A stretch of 63,703 bases of DNA, counting the filler, from an uncultured Methanosarcinales archaeon (GTDB taxonomy: Archaea > Nanobdellota > Nanobdellia > Woesearchaeales > UBA12501): NCBI GenBank assembly GCA_964397315.1. It is 3 parts of 3 records of this genome, joined end to end, with 100 filler letters (N's around TTAATTAATTAA, not from the genome) between each part and the next. Parts side by side here need not be neighbours in the genome. Positions count along the whole stretch, not along the records: positions 27,444 to 46,778 come from CAYNHV010000003.1; 2 more parts are not named here. One strand, written 5' to 3'. Position numbers: made by a program. The first letter of the stretch is position 1. The number at the start of each line of letters is the position of its first letter. Below are positions 36,001 to 39,000 of the stretch, one piece after another.

Positions 36001-39000
36001 TCATGCAATCATCATCCCTTCCATCTGAAAGCCATGTTCCTTAAAAACCTTTATAAACAAGCTGTTATACCGGAATTTTGATGAAACGAACCCATACATG
36101 CGGAGAGCTGACAAAAAAGCATGAAAAGAAGAAGGTCACGCTCCAGGGATGGGTGGGCACAAGGAGAGACCATGGCGGCCTGATATTCATAGACCTGAGG
36201 GACAGGCACGGCATCACCCAGATAGTGCTTGACCCGAAATCAAAGGGCTTTGAGCAGGCAGAGCACCTCAGGAGAGAGGACTGCATCCAGGTTACAGGAG
36301 ATGTGAGGCCCAGGCCAAAGGACATGGAAAACCCCGGTCTGAAGACAGGCTACATTGAGGTTTACGTGTCAAAAGAGCTGTTCATACTCAACAAGGCGGA
36401 CACGCCCCCTCTTGAGGTTGATGACAGGAAGGTTGCCAATGAAGAGGCGAGGATGAAGTACAGGTATATTGATTTGAGAAGGCCTGAGATGCAGGAGAGG
36501 CTTGCATTAAGGCACAAGGTGGCTCAGGAAGCGAGAAATTATCTCACTTCAAAAGGCTTTCTGGAGATAGAGACTCCCATGCTTGTGAGGGCAACTCCTG
36601 AAGGGGCAAGGGATTATGTTGTTCCCTCAAGGGTCAACCAGGGAAAGTTCTATGCTCTTCCCCAGTCACCCCAGCTCTACAAGCAGCTGCTCATGGTGTC
36701 AGGCTTTGACAGATATTTCCAGATTGTAAAGTGCTTCAGGGATGAGGACCTGAGGGCAGACAGACAGCCTGAGTTCACCCAGATTGACATGGAAGCAAGC
36801 TTCGTGGACGAGGAGGACATATTCAGCATCGTAGAAGGGATGATGTGCAGGCTGCTTGAGATAATAGGGGTTAAGGTAAAAAAGCCTTTCCCAAGGATGA
36901 CATACCGCGAGGCAATGGAGAGGTACGGCTCTGACAAGCCGGACACAAGATTCGGGCTTGAGCTTGTTGACGTGACAGACATTGTTAAGGATTCAGATTT
37001 TGAGGTTTTCACAAAGGCAATAAGCTCAGGCGGAAAGGCAAAATGCATTAATGCAAAGGGATGCGCGGAATTCTCAAGAAAAGAGATTGAAGAGTTGACT
37101 GACTTTGCCGCAATATATGGGGCAAAAGGCCTTGCGTGGATGAAGGTCAATGACAAGGGAGAGCTTGAAAGCTCAATAATGAAATTCTTCCCTGAGAAGG
37201 TGCAGAAGGAGCTTGCCGGAAGGACAGGCGCGGAAAAAGGCGACCTTCTCCTGTTCGTCTCAGACCACAAGCACTTTGTTGTTGACGACTCCCTAGGGAA
37301 CCTAAGGCTGAAGCTGGGTGAAAAGCTCGGCCTCATACCAAAGGACAGGTTCAGCTTTGTGTGGATCACAGACTTTCCGCTTCTGGAGTATGATGAGGAT
37401 ATGCAGAGGCACATAGCAGTGCATCATCCTTTCACATCCCCAAAGGAGGAGGACCTGCCGCTCATGGACAAGGATCCCTCAAATGTGAGGGCCAGGGCGT
37501 ATGATCTCACTCTCAATGGAGTTGAGCTTGGAGGGGGTTCAATAAGGATACGCCGGAGGGAAGTGCAGGAGAGAATGTTCAGGGTTCTTGGAATAACAAA
37601 AGAGGAGGCAGAGCAGAAGTTCGGTTTCCTCCTCAACGCTTTCAGGTACGGAGCTCCCCCTCATGGAGGCATTGCATTCGGCTTTGACAGGCTCATAGCG
37701 CTCATGGCAGGAGTGCCTGATAATGACATCAGGGAAGTGATAGCATTCCCAAAGAACAAGGCAGCAGAATCCCCTGTTGACGGAGCTCCCACAGACATAG
37801 ACCCTGAACAGCTGAAGGAGCTGAGCATCAAGTCCACTGCTGAGGAGAGAAGCGGCGTGTTTGAAAGAATAAAGGACATGCTTGACGCCAAAGGCATTGA
37901 CTATGAAGTTCTGGAGCACGAGCCGGTGTTCACCTCAGAGAAGGCTGCTGAGGCAAGGGGAACAGGCAGGAAGCAGGGCTGCAAGGCGCTTGTCGTGAAG
38001 AAACAGAAGGGGTATGTAATGGCTGTCGTGTCAGGAGACAGCGAGCTTGACCTCAAAAAGCTGTCCTCTGTAACAGGGGAGAGCAGGTTAAGGCTGGCCA
38101 ACGCAGAGGAAGTAAAGCAGGTGACAGAATGCCACATCGGGTCAGTCCCTCCCTTCGGAAACCTGTTTGACATTCAGGTGTATTTTGACAGGGCAGTCAG
38201 CAGGAATGAGACAGTGGCTTTTAGTGCAGGCTCTCACACAAGTTCAATAAAGATGAAGTACAAGGACCTTTTGTCAGTCACAAAAGGCAAGGAAGCGGAG
38301 TTCTCCAAATGACACGCCAGAAAGGAATAATAAAACCAAAACTTGTGGTATTTGACCTTGACGGAGTGATATTTGAGCATGATAATTTCTACAGCCAGAT
38401 GCATGAGAGGTACAGCACAGAAGAAAAGGGCAGAGCCCTTGAGAGAAAGTACCTGAAGAGCAACACGCAAAAGCTGGCAGAGCTTGTGATAGGAAAGCTC
38501 TGGGCAGGAAAGAGCGACAGGGAATACTGGAGCCTGATAGAGAAAGCCAGATTTAATCCAGGAGCTGAGGAGGCAGTAGCAGAGCTGAAGAGAAAGGGCA
38601 TAAAGACGATGATACTCACCTCTGCTGTTGAGGACCTTGCCAGAAAGGCCCAGAAGGAGCTTGGCATAGATTATGTGGCTGCAAACTGGATGGAAACAAA
38701 AGAGGGGAAAATAACAGGCAGGTTCAGGTGGAGGATATTATGGGACGGCAAGGGCCTCATTCTGGAGGACTTCTGCAGGGACAATGGAATAAGGCTTGAG
38801 CAGACCGCATGCGTTGGGGATAATGAGAATGATGTGTCCATGATGAGAAAAGCGGGCTTGAGCATAGCATTCAATACCCGCTCTGAAACACTGAAAGAGC
38901 AGTGTGATGTTGTGATAGACAGCAATGACCTTAGGGAAATACTTAAATATGTCAGCTGAAAATTCCATTTCATGGTTCTGCAGCAGGGGCTCATCTTCGC

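What a model noticed while it worked through the whole genome (the two positions that open the first line are those of the whole stretch)
36081..38312. Bacterial-type AspRS fused to a ProX/YbaK-like aminoacyl-tRNA deacylase domain
The only aspartyl-tRNA synthetase (g00274, 743 aa) is of the bacterial type (with GAD insertion; the genome has GatCAB and no AsnRS, so it should be non-discriminating) and carries a C-terminal 150-aa domain of the YbaK/ProX trans-editing family, closest to free-standing ProX-type deacylases. Such editing domains are known in cis mainly in ProRS; an AspRS-linked one suggests proofreading of a mischarged tRNA in the Asp/Asn transamidation route. The fusion is found in a minority of Woesearchaeales.
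Evidence so far: Pfam tRNA_anti-codon, tRNA-synt_2, GAD, tRNA_edit (6e-34, residues 613-731). C-terminal 155 aa: PDB 3op6 1e-19, TTHA1699 2cx5 2e-12, APE2540 1wdv, ProXp-ala 5vxb 4e-10, YbaK 2dxa 3e-5; NCBIfam YbaK_EbsC 77 bits, below its cut. Seven of the ten best GTDB hits are 742-746 aa and align end to end; in a sample of 200 Nanobdellota genomes about 7 of the ~120 listed bacterial-type AspRS matches reach residue 736-743, the others end near 585-595. GatCAB genes g00278/g00280/g00282 lie 2-6 kb downstream.
(Added by a program. Inside this text positions count along the whole contig: they may not be those of the stretch shown here. "Call 12" and the like, gene names such as g00115 and contig names such as C1 are that model's own, and its searches are not shown. 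The text may have been shortened before it was handed on; [...] marks where a part breaks off. The agent that wrote the report below was given it as the finding of a first reader that could run no searches.)

Follow-up and report, generated by a model that had tools for sequence, protein, structure and literature searches.

The report
AspRS carrying a tethered aminoacyl-tRNA deacylase
The only aspartyl-tRNA synthetase of this small archaeon carries an extra tRNA-proofreading domain, of a family that keeps turning up fused to or beside the enzymes that make Asp-tRNA and Asn-tRNA, which suggests an undescribed quality control for that step.

Summary
Window 36081-38312 (+) encodes a 743-aa bacterial-type, GAD-containing AspRS with a C-terminal YbaK/ProX-fold (INS-superfamily) domain. 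The domain keeps the catalytic Lys (K635) and the GxxxP loop. The fusion recurs in more than 60 independent assemblies, including 24 of 301 sampled genomes of the order.

New here: the domain belongs to a distinct clade, closest to the uncharacterised 3op6, not to ProX or YbaK in particular. This clade is tied to Asx-tRNA synthesis:
- It is fused to three AspRS core types: GAD-type, GAD-less bacterial and archaeal ND-type.
- As a free gene it lies directly after aspS in 13 of 38 loci, often near asnS.
- In other Woesearchaeales it is fused to GatB within the same aspS-gatCAB operon.

Fused genomes mostly lack AsnRS (20/23) and have GatB (21/23). Genomes with the free gene mostly have AsnRS (35/41). 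An Arg (R626) is invariant in every Asx-linked member. It is hydrophobic in the five solved homologues aligned and in a ProRS-fused paralogue.

Most likely function: a tethered deacylase that removes Asp-tRNAAsn which escapes amidation. The substrate is inferred, not shown. I found no description in the literature searched. I rate it a new variant of a known kind, interest 0.75.

The parts
36081..38312 (+). aspS::edit, 743-aa fused gene (stop codon included)
   Evidence: ORF and translation; four Pfam domains
36135..36323 (+). OB-fold anticodon-binding domain (residues 19-81)
   Evidence: PF01336, 9.8e-17
36438..37760 (+). Class IIb catalytic core (residues 120-560), interrupted by the GAD insertion
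   Evidence: PF00152, 1.2e-124; aspS_bact 796 bits
37008..37283 (+). GAD insertion domain (residues 310-401), the mark of bacterial-type AspRS
   Evidence: PF02938, 4.3e-25
37767..37853 (+). C-terminal tail of AspRS plus linker (about residues 563-591), predicted to be flexible
   Evidence: pLDDT under 50 at 568-570 and 577-590 in the full-length model; pTM 0.68
37845..38309 (+). INS-superfamily (YbaK/ProX-fold) deacylase domain (residues 589-743)
   Evidence: PF04073, 3.8e-33; model pLDDT 94.3; TM 0.81-0.90 to 2cx5, 2z0k, 1wdv, 3op6 and 1dbu
37983..37985 (+). Codon of K635, the putative catalytic lysine
   Evidence: Invariant in 284 of 284 aligned family members; aligns with K46 of H. influenzae YbaK (the role of K46 is recalled)
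37956..37958 (+). Codon of R626, the family-specific arginine
   Evidence: Arg in 253 of 284; invariant in all AspRS-, AsnRS- and GatB-linked members; Leu, Val or Ala in the five solved homologues aligned, Leu in the ProRS-fused paralogue
38139..38153 (+). GxxxP loop (G687-S-V-P-P691)
   Evidence: G687 99-100% and P691 100% conserved
40553..40861 (+). gatC
   Evidence: TIGR00135, 88.5 bits, over its cut-off; downstream of fused aspS in 21 of 36 related loci
41606..43042 (+). gatA
   Evidence: TIGR00132, 444 bits, the best match though under the 481 cut-off
43744..45165 (+). gatB
   Evidence: NF004012, 567 bits; TIGR00133, 505 bits

Best explanation
The gene encodes the organism's single, non-discriminating aspartyl-tRNA synthetase. 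This enzyme must charge both tRNAAsp and tRNAAsn, and GatCAB, encoded 2-7 kb downstream, then converts Asp-tRNAAsn to Asn-tRNAAsn.

A flexible stretch of roughly 25 residues tethers a catalytically competent aminoacyl-tRNA deacylase of the INS (YbaK/ProX) fold to the C-terminus. The domain belongs to a distinct clade of that superfamily that is dedicated to the Asx-tRNA machinery.

**Proposed mechanism (inferred).** The domain is an Asp-specific fail-safe. R626 sits one turn further along the helix that lines the aminoacyl pocket and senses the side-chain carboxylate. K635 and the G687-P691 loop carry out hydrolysis, as in other INS members. Asp-tRNAAsp leaves the synthetase quickly and is taken up by the elongation factor. 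Asp-tRNAAsn lingers on a non-discriminating AspRS. If GatCAB does not amidate it, its 3' end reaches the tethered domain and is hydrolysed, so Asp is not inserted at Asn codons.

Free-standing orthologues would do the same in trans beside AspRS or AsnRS. The GatB-fused form would do it from the other side of the transamidosome.

**Shown:** the architecture, the conserved catalytic motifs, the fold and the genomic coupling.
**Inferred:** the catalytic activity, the substrate, the role of R626 and the kinetic partitioning.
For: **Architecture and competence.**
- Domains are as given.
- H613, K635, G687 and P691 are invariant in the family. K635 aligns with YbaK K46.
- The fold model is confident (pLDDT 94.3) and matches ProX, APE2540, 3op6 and YbaK at TM 0.81-0.91.
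- The linker has low confidence and the whole-protein pTM is 0.68.

**Coupling to Asx-tRNA synthesis.**
1. The domain is fused to three AspRS core types: GAD-type; GAD-less bacterial (L063, L069, P0127, P0134); and archaeal aspartate--tRNA(Asn) ligase (L062, L065, P0083, P0189).
2. At least 15 of the best 150 representative proteins, out of 1.84 billion searched, carry tRNA-synt_2 plus tRNA_edit.
3. Around 38 free-standing orthologues in the order, an AspRS gene lies upstream on the same strand within 110 nt in 13 and within 3.5 kb in 20. An AsnRS gene lies downstream within 3.5 kb in 14. No ProRS is present in any of the 38.
4. In two Aenigmatarchaeota loci the gene follows asnS by 14 nt.
5. 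tRNA_edit::GatB fusions form 13 clusters of 615-649 aa. One sits in the operon aspS-gatC-PHP-gatA-edit::gatB, which is syntenic with the window.
6. gatC lies downstream of fused aspS in 21 of 36 loci.

**Route profile.**

| Genomes | AsnRS | GatB |
|---|---|---|
| Fused (n=23) | 3/23 | 21/23 |
| Free-standing (n=41) | 35/41 | 11/41 |

. Of five CPR genomes with a fused or adjacent gene, one has AsnRS and all five have GatB.

**Distinct from ProRS editing.** Genome G071 has both the AspRS fusion and a separate tRNA_edit::ProRS fusion.

**R626.** It is Arg in all 80 AspRS-fused rows of the alignment, all 23 adjacent or near members and all 13 GatB-fused members. It is Leu in the ProRS-fused paralogue and Leu, Val or Ala in the five solved homologues aligned.

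**Precedents.**
- ND-AspRS releases Asp-tRNAAsn much more slowly than Asp-tRNAAsp, and mischarged Asp-tRNAAsn causes misincorporation and toxicity (PMC3367201; abstract and passages read).
- H. pylori GluRS2 hydrolyses excess Glu-tRNAGln (PMC3241645; abstract read).
Against: - There is no biochemical evidence. The substrate is inferred from context and one residue.
- Hydrolysing an obligatory intermediate is a futile cycle. It needs kinetic partitioning that has not been shown here.
- The domain would also meet Asp-tRNAAsp. No tRNA discrimination could be examined, because ARAGORN found no tRNAAsp, tRNAAsn or tRNAPro gene in the assembly.
- The domain is dispensable. The closest relative's AspRS (71% identical) ends at residue 585, and two more genomes of the same family, also on the GatCAB route, have unfused AspRS. 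Of 16 sampled genomes without the domain, 9 have GatB.
- Three of 23 fused genomes also have AsnRS.
- The fused domain is the only INS-type domain in this genome and ProRS lacks an editing insertion. It could therefore also, or instead, clear ProRS errors. JGI's automatic name for free relatives is 'Ala-tRNA(Pro) deacylase'.
- R626 could contact tRNA rather than the amino acid. Its placement near the pocket rests on recalled positions of E. coli ProRS INS residues, not on coordinates.
- Genome counts are not phylogenetically independent. Two fused genomes in the counts (G208, G132) are unpublished.
Confidence: 0.45

Rival explanations
1. The domain is Asx-linked but acts on a different substrate: Asn-tRNAAsp. 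This species could arise when GatCAB wrongly amidates Asp-tRNAAsp, or when AsnRS mischarges tRNAAsp. AspRS, which binds tRNAAsp, would present it to the tethered domain and then recharge it.
For: The context evidence is the same as for the main reading: fusions to AspRS and GatB, adjacency to aspS and asnS, and gatCAB synteny. The error is conceivable on both the AsnRS route and the GatCAB route, which fits the presence of the family in both.
Against: A deacylase that accepts Asn, fused to GatB or to ND-AspRS, would also meet the correct product Asn-tRNAAsn. It would therefore need strict tRNA discrimination, for which there is no evidence. An invariant Arg fits a carboxylate better than an amide (inference). 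tRNAAsn, not tRNAAsp, is the tRNA shared by ND-AspRS, AsnRS and GatB.
Confidence: 0.1
2. The domain corrects an amino-acid error of AspRS itself: D-Asp-tRNAAsp (chiral proofreading) or an aspartate analogue. It works as a cis or trans post-transfer editing site, as INS does for ProRS.
For: - The domain is tightly coupled to AspRS of three types.
- The window's genome has neither DTD nor DTD2 (93% complete).
- DTD2 was found in 22 of 64 genomes with the domain (11/23 fused, 11/41 free) against 12 of 16 without it.
- That AspRS can charge D-Asp is recalled from the literature and was not checked here.
Against: - This reading does not explain the GatB fusions, the adjacency to asnS, or the split by AsnRS and GatCAB route.
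- 11 of 23 fused genomes have DTD2 as well.
- The no-domain control has only 16 genomes. They were the first listed, not a random draw, and kinship was not corrected.
- No INS-fold enzyme is known to me as a chiral proofreader (recalled).
Confidence: 0.15
3. The domain is a generic trans-editing factor of the ProX/ProXp kind. It would clear small mischarged residues such as Ala or Abu on tRNAPro and other tRNAs. Its attachment to AspRS would only provide co-expression or extra tRNA affinity, with no special tie to Asp or Asn.
For: - It is the only INS-type domain in the genome, and ProRS is the archaeal type without an INS insertion.
- The fold is closest to T. thermophilus ProX, including its AlaSA complex 2z0k, at TM 0.88-0.89.
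- ProXp-x (PDB 2CX5) deacylates Abu-tRNA and, more weakly, Ala-tRNAPro (PMC11295145, passages read).
- JGI names free relatives 'Ala-tRNA(Pro) deacylase'.
Against: - No ProRS lies beside any of the 38 free orthologues, while AspRS lies upstream in 20.
- G071 carries a separate ProRS-fused paralogue in addition to the AspRS fusion.
- The fusion partners are always AspRS or GatB.
- The family profile is no nearer to ProX than to YbaK.
- R626 replaces a hydrophobic residue of the five solved homologues aligned.
Confidence: 0.12
4. The domain has a non-hydrolytic role. It binds and shields the aminoacyl end of Asp-tRNAAsp or Asp-tRNAAsn, acting as a hand-off or chaperone module for GatCAB or the elongation factor, or it merely adds tRNA affinity.
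For: It is tethered to both partners of the transamidosome. Transamidosomes are described as devices that prevent release of the mischarged intermediate (PMC3367201).
Against: The catalytic Lys and the GxxxP loop are invariant in all 284 aligned members, including every fused form. That pattern is expected for an active hydrolase.
Confidence: 0.08

Closest known systems
INS editing domain of bacterial ProRS (cis post-transfer editing of Ala-tRNAPro)
   Same: Same fold and the same catalytic hallmarks, a conserved Lys and a GxxxP loop. It is an editing module covalently joined to a class II synthetase.
   Different: INS is inserted between the class II motifs of ProRS. Here the domain is appended to the C-terminus of AspRS through a flexible tail. 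The profile match to ProRS INS is weak (55 bits). AspRS is not known to me to have any editing site (recalled).
ProXp-ala fused to the N-terminus of ProRS in lower eukaryotes (Plasmodium, Trypanosoma)
   Same: A free-standing INS-superfamily deacylase that became fused to the synthetase whose product it polices. In T. brucei the fusion improved deacylation relative to the free domain (PMC11295145 and PMC11286415, passages read).
   Different: The partner is ProRS and the substrate is Ala-tRNAPro. A comparable archaeal tRNA_edit::ProRS fusion does exist (L094) but is a different paralogue, with Leu at the R626 position.
YbaK (Cys-tRNAPro deacylase) acting in a ProRS-YbaK-tRNA ternary complex
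   Same: A trans-editing factor without tRNA specificity of its own that gains it by association with a synthetase (PMC11286415 and PMC3367201, passages). The free-standing genes beside aspS may work this way. K635 aligns with YbaK K46.
   Different: The domain fails the YbaK equivalog model (72 bits against a 153 cut-off). Its neighbours are aspS, asnS and gatB, not proS.
3op6, Legionella pneumophila lpg1207 (uncharacterised; PDB title 'oligo-nucleotide binding protein')
   Same: The closest solved relative by sequence: 127 bits, 4e-36 with the family profile. It shares the H613, K635, GxVPPFGN and AGSH motifs.
   Different: It has Ala at the R626 position. It is free-standing, its function is unknown, and its genomic context was not examined.
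AspRS-GatC fusion (NCBIfam NF009460, 'bifunctional aspartyl-tRNA synthetase/amidotransferase subunit C')
   Same: A C-terminal fusion of a transamidosome component to bacterial-type AspRS. The window's core matches positions 25-622 of the 723 in that model.
   Different: The appended module there is GatC. Here it is a deacylase, and the score of 690 bits is far below that model's cut-off of 1379.
H. pylori GluRS2, which hydrolyses excess Glu-tRNAGln in the Gln-transamidosome
   Same: A functional precedent for removing surplus mischarged intermediate of an indirect pathway (PMC3241645, abstract read).
   Different: There the hydrolysis is attributed to the synthetase itself, with no dedicated editing domain, and it concerns the Glu/Gln pathway.

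Membership tests
Bacterial-type AspRS (TIGR00459 / NF001750) | Full-length match above the curated cut-off | tested here: met
   NF001750: 857 bits (cut-off 443). TIGR00459: 796 bits (cut-off 374). Both cover residues 1-587.
Bacterial-type AspRS (TIGR00459 / NF001750) | GAD insertion domain within the catalytic core | tested here: met
   PF02938, residues 310-401, 4.3e-25.
Non-discriminating AspRS (functional class) | Sole AspRS in a genome that lacks AsnRS and has GatCAB | tested here: met
   There is one tRNA-synt_2 gene, no asnS match other than this gene, and gatC, gatA and gatB downstream. GatE is present for Gln. The assembly is 93% complete, so absence is not proven.
Non-discriminating AspRS (functional class) | Aspartylation of tRNAAsn | not testable with these tools
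   This needs an aminoacylation assay. tRNAAsn and tRNAAsp genes were not found by ARAGORN.
INS / YbaK superfamily (Pfam PF04073 tRNA_edit) | Domain match above the gathering score | tested here: met
   114.7 bits against a 25.5 cut-off.
INS / YbaK superfamily (Pfam PF04073 tRNA_edit) | Conserved catalytic Lys and GxxxP loop | tested here: met
   K635 and G687-x-x-x-P691 are invariant. K635 aligns with H. influenzae YbaK K46. The motif definition is quoted in PMC11286415.
INS / YbaK superfamily (Pfam PF04073 tRNA_edit) | YbaK/ProX fold | tested here: met
   AlphaFold2 model with pLDDT 94.3. Foldseek TM 0.81-0.91 to 2cx5, 2z0k, 1wdv, 3op6 and 1dbu.
INS / YbaK superfamily (Pfam PF04073 tRNA_edit) | Aminoacyl-tRNA deacylase activity | not testable with these tools
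   This needs a deacylation assay.
YbaK proper (TIGR00011, Cys-tRNAPro deacylase) | Equivalog model above its cut-off | tested here: not met
   72 bits against 153.25. PRK10670: 26-30 bits against 243.
ProXp-x / ProX (TTHA1699 2cx5, APE2540 1wdv) | Closer to ProX representatives than to other INS families | tested here: not met
   Family profile scores: 2cx5 69 bits and 1wdv 67 bits, no better than YbaK 1dbu at 70.5 bits and far below 3op6 at 127 bits. By fold alone ProX is marginally the best match.
ProXp-ala (5vxb) | Sequence affinity to ProXp-ala, and association with ProRS or tRNAPro | tested here: not met
   52.6 bits with partial coverage. No ProRS lies next to any of the 38 free orthologues. 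The ProRS-fused paralogue differs.
ProXp-7/-8/-9 (uncharacterised INS clusters of Kuzmishin Nagy et al. 2020) | Membership in one of these clusters | not tested
   The defining paper is not in the library. Only mentions in PMC11295145 and PMC11286415 were seen. ProXp-7 is described there as eukaryotic (MCP3).

The most novel reading that the evidence does not exclude
A previously unrecognised clade of INS-fold deacylases is the dedicated proofreader of the asparagine branch of the genetic code. It would be an Asp-tRNAAsn hydrolase, with R626 as a carboxylate sensor, that evolution has repeatedly bolted onto AspRS (three core types) or GatB, or parked beside aspS and asnS, in DPANN archaea and CPR bacteria. 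This would give AspRS and the transamidosome a true editing activity. It would also show how cells police an obligatory mischarged intermediate by kinetic partitioning between amidation and hydrolysis.
Probability: 0.4. Interest if true: 0.85.

Novelty: new variant of a known kind. Interest (0 to 1): 0.75.

Why it matters
AspRS and AsnRS are textbook examples of synthetases without editing. The indirect Asn pathway relies on a deliberately mischarged tRNA, and its containment has so far been explained by channelling and by rejection at the elongation factor. A deacylase family physically and genomically wedded to AspRS, AsnRS and GatB would add a hydrolytic safeguard to that pathway and a new substrate class to the INS superfamily.

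It also offers a compact, directly testable system: one 743-aa protein, two point mutants (K635 and R626) and GatCAB from the same operon. The 2024 review of the field states that INS-superfamily members other than INS itself are single-domain proteins apart from ProRS fusions (PMC11295145). The AspRS and GatB fusions extend that picture.

In public records the fused genes are named only 'aspartate--tRNA ligase' or 'amidotransferase subunit B'. In one record the domain is annotated as a separate YbaK/EbsC gene inside the fused frame.

Tried and rejected
- **Docking of the domain on the AspRS core.** I ran complex prediction with residues 1-588 against 589-743, using alignment A2. It returned no verdict and is not used as evidence either way.
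- **Acceptor-stem comparison of tRNAAsp, tRNAAsn and tRNAPro.** ARAGORN, with and without intron search, found 8 and 21 tRNA genes in the assembly and none for Asp, Asn or Pro. I abandoned this line.
- **A free-standing near-identical form.** P0027 and P0028, 'YbaK/EbsC family', are 59-61% identical to the domain. P0027 lies inside a 751-aa frame with the AspRS core (L022), so it is a split gene call. P0028 groups inside the fused clade, but I did not check its locus.
- **His31 as a marker of non-discriminating AspRS (recalled).** 'HG' is present both in fused AspRS and in the unfused GAD-type AspRS of AsnRS-route genomes, so it is uninformative here.
- **A single origin of R626 or of the fusion.** The 155-column tree is poorly resolved: 35 of 86 inner branches are open, and the R626 state needs 10 changes. 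I make no claim about the order of events.
- **Conserved window neighbours.** The HAD-IB, EamA and creatininase-family genes between aspS and gatCAB are not found in the 36 related fused loci at 1e-8.
- **Literature.** Nine searches found no paper describing an AspRS- or GatB-linked INS/YbaK domain. Subscription papers, including the Kuzmishin Nagy 2020 chapter, and all supplements were not seen.

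
Full report
**1. The observation.**

Window 36081-38312 (+) is an uninterrupted ATG-initiated ORF of 743 codons.
- Pfam finds an OB anticodon-binding domain (19-81), the class IIb core (120-560) with a GAD insertion (310-401), and a tRNA_edit domain (613-731, 3.8e-33).
- NCBIfam places residues 1-587 in bacterial-type AspRS (857 and 796 bits).
- The C-terminal part scores 72 bits against the YbaK equivalog, whose cut-off is 153.

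The window joins two contigs. The gene lies on contig C3 of a 1.47-Mb, 61-contig assembly that is 93% complete.

In that assembly:
- The gene is the only class IIb synthetase and the only tRNA_edit match.
- No AsnRS is found.
- ProRS is the archaeal type without an editing insertion.
- GatE is present.
- gatC, gatA and gatB follow 2.2-5.4 kb downstream on the same strand.

The enzyme must therefore serve both tRNAAsp and tRNAAsn.

**2. The fusion is real and recurrent.**
- Twenty-five other 90%-identity clusters of 726-745 aa carry the same four Pfam domains. NCBI names them only 'aspartate--tRNA ligase [Candidatus Woesearchaeota archaeon]'.
- In GTDB species representatives, 36 Woesearchaeota or Nanoarchaeota loci have the AspRS core and the domain in one frame: 34 frames of 741-796 aa and 2 cut by contig ends.
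- In an even sample of 301 genomes of the window's order, 24 hold the domain in a long frame. Five of these frames are 407-567 aa; one (G027) was checked and has the core in frame, the other four are taken as fused from frame length alone. The count includes the window's genome and two unpublished genomes, G208 and G132.
- A 168-aa 'YbaK/EbsC family protein' that looked like a free-standing twin lies inside such a fused frame (L022).

**3. What the domain is.**
- A model built on 110 family members is confident: pLDDT 94.3 and pTM 0.89.
- It superposes on T. thermophilus ProX, APE2540, 3op6 and YbaK with TM 0.81-0.91.
- In 284 aligned members, H613, K635 and P691 are invariant and G687 nearly so. 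G687-S-V-P-P691 is the GxxxP loop.
- K635 aligns with K46 of H. influenzae YbaK. Lys and GxxxP are the catalytic hallmarks of the INS superfamily (PMC11286415, passage).
- A profile of the family scores the uncharacterised Legionella protein 3op6 at 127 bits. It scores YbaK (70.5, 69), TTHA1699/ProXp-x (69), APE2540 (67), Atu3699 (57), ProRS INS (55) and ProXp-ala (53) far lower, and about equally.

It is thus a separate clade, not a ProX or a YbaK.

In the full-length model both parts are well folded. Residues 568-570 and 577-590 fall below pLDDT 50 and pTM is 0.68. This indicates a domain on a flexible tether rather than a fixed insertion.

**4. The clade is coupled to the Asp/Asn machinery.**

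This is the main new result.

*(a) Fusion partners.*
- Besides the GAD-type core, the domain is fused to GAD-less bacterial-type AspRS: L063, L069, P0127 and P0134, with aspS_bact scores of 494-558 bits.
- It is also fused to archaeal-type aspartate--tRNA(Asn) ligase: L062, L065, P0083 and P0189, with NF003483 scores of 457-508 bits.
- These occur in loci titled Gottesmanbacteria and in unnamed metagenomic proteins.
- At least 15 of the best 150 representatives from a scan of 1.84 billion proteins combine tRNA-synt_2 with tRNA_edit.
- In the domain tree the core types are intermixed.

*(b) Neighbours of the free gene.* I fetched 3.5 kb on each side of 38 free-standing orthologues (36-48% identical) from the order sample.
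- An AspRS gene lies upstream on the same strand within 110 nt in 13: seven GAD-type, five archaeal-type and one GAD-less.
- An AspRS gene lies at 290-2452 nt in 7 more, and none is seen in 18.
- An AsnRS gene lies downstream within 3.5 kb in 14. L088 and L097 show tight aspS-edit-asnS triplets.
- No ProRS lies in any of the 38.
- In two Aenigmatarchaeota loci the gene follows asnS by 14 nt. In a WWE3 locus it follows a GAD-less aspS by 96 nt.

*(c) A GatB fusion.*
- In genome G073 a related domain (32% identical) is fused to the N-terminus of GatB, giving 621 aa with tRNA_edit, GatB_N and GatB_Yqey.
- Thirteen clusters of such proteins (615-649 aa) exist in NCBI, JGI, ENA and Logan data.
- The G073 operon reads aspS(unfused)-gatC-PHP-gatA-edit::gatB. 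It is syntenic with the window, down to the PHP gene, which is 50% identical.
- The same module therefore sits on either partner of the Asn-transamidosome.

*(d) gatCAB synteny.* gatC lies downstream on the same strand within 6 kb in 21 of 36 fused loci. Seven loci with at least 5 kb of downstream sequence lack it, and eight loci have under 3 kb of downstream sequence.

*(e) Route profile.* Counts come from 80 genomes of the sample.

| Genomes | AsnRS over cut-off | GatB |
|---|---|---|
| Fused (n=23) | 3 | 21 |
| Free-standing gene (n=41) | 35 | 11 |
| No domain (n=16) | 8 | 9 |

- All six genomes with the free gene that lack AsnRS have GatB.
- Without the two unpublished genomes the fused figures are 3/21 and 19/21.
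- Of five CPR genomes with a fused or adjacent gene, one has AsnRS and all five have GatB.
- These genomes are related to one another, so the counts describe the sample and are not a test.

**5. Distinct from ProRS editing.**
- Genome G071 carries the AspRS fusion.
- On another contig it carries a 666-aa tRNA_edit::ProRS fusion, an archaeal counterpart of the ProXp-ala-ProRS fusions of lower eukaryotes (PMC11295145).
- The two editing domains are 32-34% identical to each other's family and differ at key positions.

**6. A candidate specificity residue.**
- R626 is Arg in all 80 AspRS-fused rows of the alignment, all 23 AspRS- or AsnRS-adjacent or near sequences, and all 13 GatB-fused sequences.
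- The 31 of 284 sequences without Arg are 27 proteins of unknown context, three free genes with no AspRS in the flank (L070, L071, L072), and the ProRS-fused L094, which has Leu.
- The five solved homologues aligned have Leu, Val or Ala there.
- R626 lies at the end of helix 619-626. It sits one turn beyond S619 and A622/A623, and nine residues before K635.
- From memory, the INS pocket residues of E. coli ProRS lie 13 and 16 residues before its catalytic Lys, on the equivalent helix. If that holds, R626 would sit at the far end of the aminoacyl pocket, where a side-chain carboxylate could reach. This placement is inference. I had no coordinates.

**7. Mechanism proposed.**

Asp-tRNAAsn is the one species that ND-AspRS makes, AsnRS could make by misactivating Asp, and GatB consumes. 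tRNAAsn is the tRNA these three enzymes share.

Published work supports the parts of the model:
- ND-AspRS releases Asp-tRNAAsn much more slowly than Asp-tRNAAsp.
- Escaped Asp-tRNAAsn is misincorporated and toxic (PMC3367201; abstract and passages read).
- In the Gln pathway GluRS2 hydrolyses excess Glu-tRNAGln (PMC3241645; abstract read).

I therefore propose a tethered, Asp-selective deacylase that competes kinetically with GatCAB for the lingering Asp-tRNAAsp-like intermediate on tRNAAsn, that is, Asp-tRNAAsn. Amidation wins when GatCAB and the amide donor are available, and hydrolysis wins otherwise.

My confidence by level of claim:
- That the domain is an active deacylase functionally tied to Asx-tRNA synthesis: about 0.8.
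- That the substrate is Asp-tRNAAsn: about 0.4-0.45.

**8. Against the proposal, and open points.**
- There is no assay.
- The model implies a futile cycle unless kinetic partitioning holds.
- The domain is dispensable. The AspRS of the closest relative (G264, 71% identical) stops at residue 585. G131 (63%) and G207 (57%) in the same family are also unfused although all use GatCAB.
- Three fused genomes also have AsnRS.
- The window's genome has no other INS-type domain and no DTD or DTD2, so ProRS errors or D-aminoacyl-tRNAs could be additional or alternative substrates.
- DTD2 was found in 11/23 fused, 11/41 free-standing and 12/16 no-domain genomes. This is an unexplained tendency that keeps the D-Asp rival alive, but it rests on a small, non-random control group.

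**9. Novelty.**
- Nine full-text searches found no description of an AspRS- or GatB-linked INS/YbaK domain.
- The 2024 review says INS-superfamily members other than INS are single-domain proteins, apart from ProRS fusions and the plant C-terminal domain.
- The architectures are present but unremarked in public protein records.
- I could not read the 2020 chapter that defines ProXp-7, -8 and -9, nor any supplements.
- Verdict: a real feature, a new variant of a known kind, interest 0.75.

Noticed in passing
L095:2082-3944 (-) (G073:C51); proteins P0195-P0207: A tRNA_edit domain is fused to the N-terminus of GatB (615-649 aa, 13 clusters). One sits in the operon aspS-gatC-PHP-gatA-edit::gatB, which is syntenic with the window. 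Where named at all, these proteins are called only 'amidotransferase subunit B'.
   Followed up: yes
L094:1980-3977 (-) (G071:C139): An archaeal-type ProRS carries an N-terminal tRNA_edit domain (666 aa). This resembles the ProXp-ala-ProRS fusions of lower eukaryotes. The same genome also has the AspRS fusion.
   Followed up: partly
P0046 (448 aa), P0049 (491 aa), P0057 (303 aa): These proteins consist of three (P0046, P0049) or two (P0057) tandem tRNA_edit domains. They are among the best matches to the window's domain.
   Followed up: no
L061, L062, L063, L065, L069 (directly downstream of the aspS-edit gene); P0175: A Peptidase_S11 (D-Ala-D-Ala carboxypeptidase) gene directly follows the AspRS-linked domain in all five CPR-type loci. 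P0175 (505 aa) is a tRNA_edit plus Peptidase_S11 fusion. This could be lineage synteny or a link to D-amino acids.
   Followed up: no
P0098 (286 aa): A GmrSD_N restriction-endonuclease N-terminal domain is fused to a tRNA_edit domain. It may be a gene-call artefact.
   Followed up: no
window 38309-40520, 40884-41630, 43039-43728: Extra genes are interleaved with aspS and gatCAB: two HAD-IB phosphoserine-phosphatase-like genes flanking an EamA-type transporter, a PHP-domain gene between gatC and gatA, and a creatininase-family gene between gatA and gatB. Only the PHP gene recurs, in L095 at 50% identity. An EamA gene also follows the free domain gene in Aenigmatarchaeota locus L059.
   Followed up: partly
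window 36303-36365 (AspRS residues about 75-95): In the loop before the conserved TG-IE strand of the OB domain, fused AspRS reads 'RPKGMENxK'. So does L089, whose genome has both GatB and AsnRS. The unfused GAD-type AspRS of most other AsnRS-route loci examined is two residues shorter ('KKPE--ANK'). This may relate to tRNAAsn recognition but is untested.
   Followed up: partly
G000:C26:10308-11717 (-): The GatE match is split into two pieces (model positions 3-260 and 400-619) in different open frames, with one TAG inside. It could be a broken gene, a frameshift or a sequencing error.
   Followed up: no
whole genome G000: ARAGORN finds only 21 tRNA genes, nearly all with predicted introns and one with an implausible 1783-nt intron. 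None is for Asp, Asn or Pro. The tRNA genes are probably split, permuted or unassembled.
   Followed up: partly
80 genomes of the order sample: DTD2 (PF04414) was found in 22 of 64 genomes that carry the domain and in 12 of 16 that do not. The window's genome has neither DTD nor DTD2. The tendency is not corrected for kinship.
   Followed up: partly
window 24001-28000: GC content drops to 0.36-0.39, against about 0.47-0.51 on either side, around the junction of the two contigs (C2 ends at 27343, C3 starts at 27444).
   Followed up: no
L022:6001-6504 (record JBBSVT010000111.1): The public record annotates a separate 168-aa 'YbaK/EbsC family protein' (P0027). It lies in frame inside a 751-aa AspRS-edit open frame.
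   Followed up: yes
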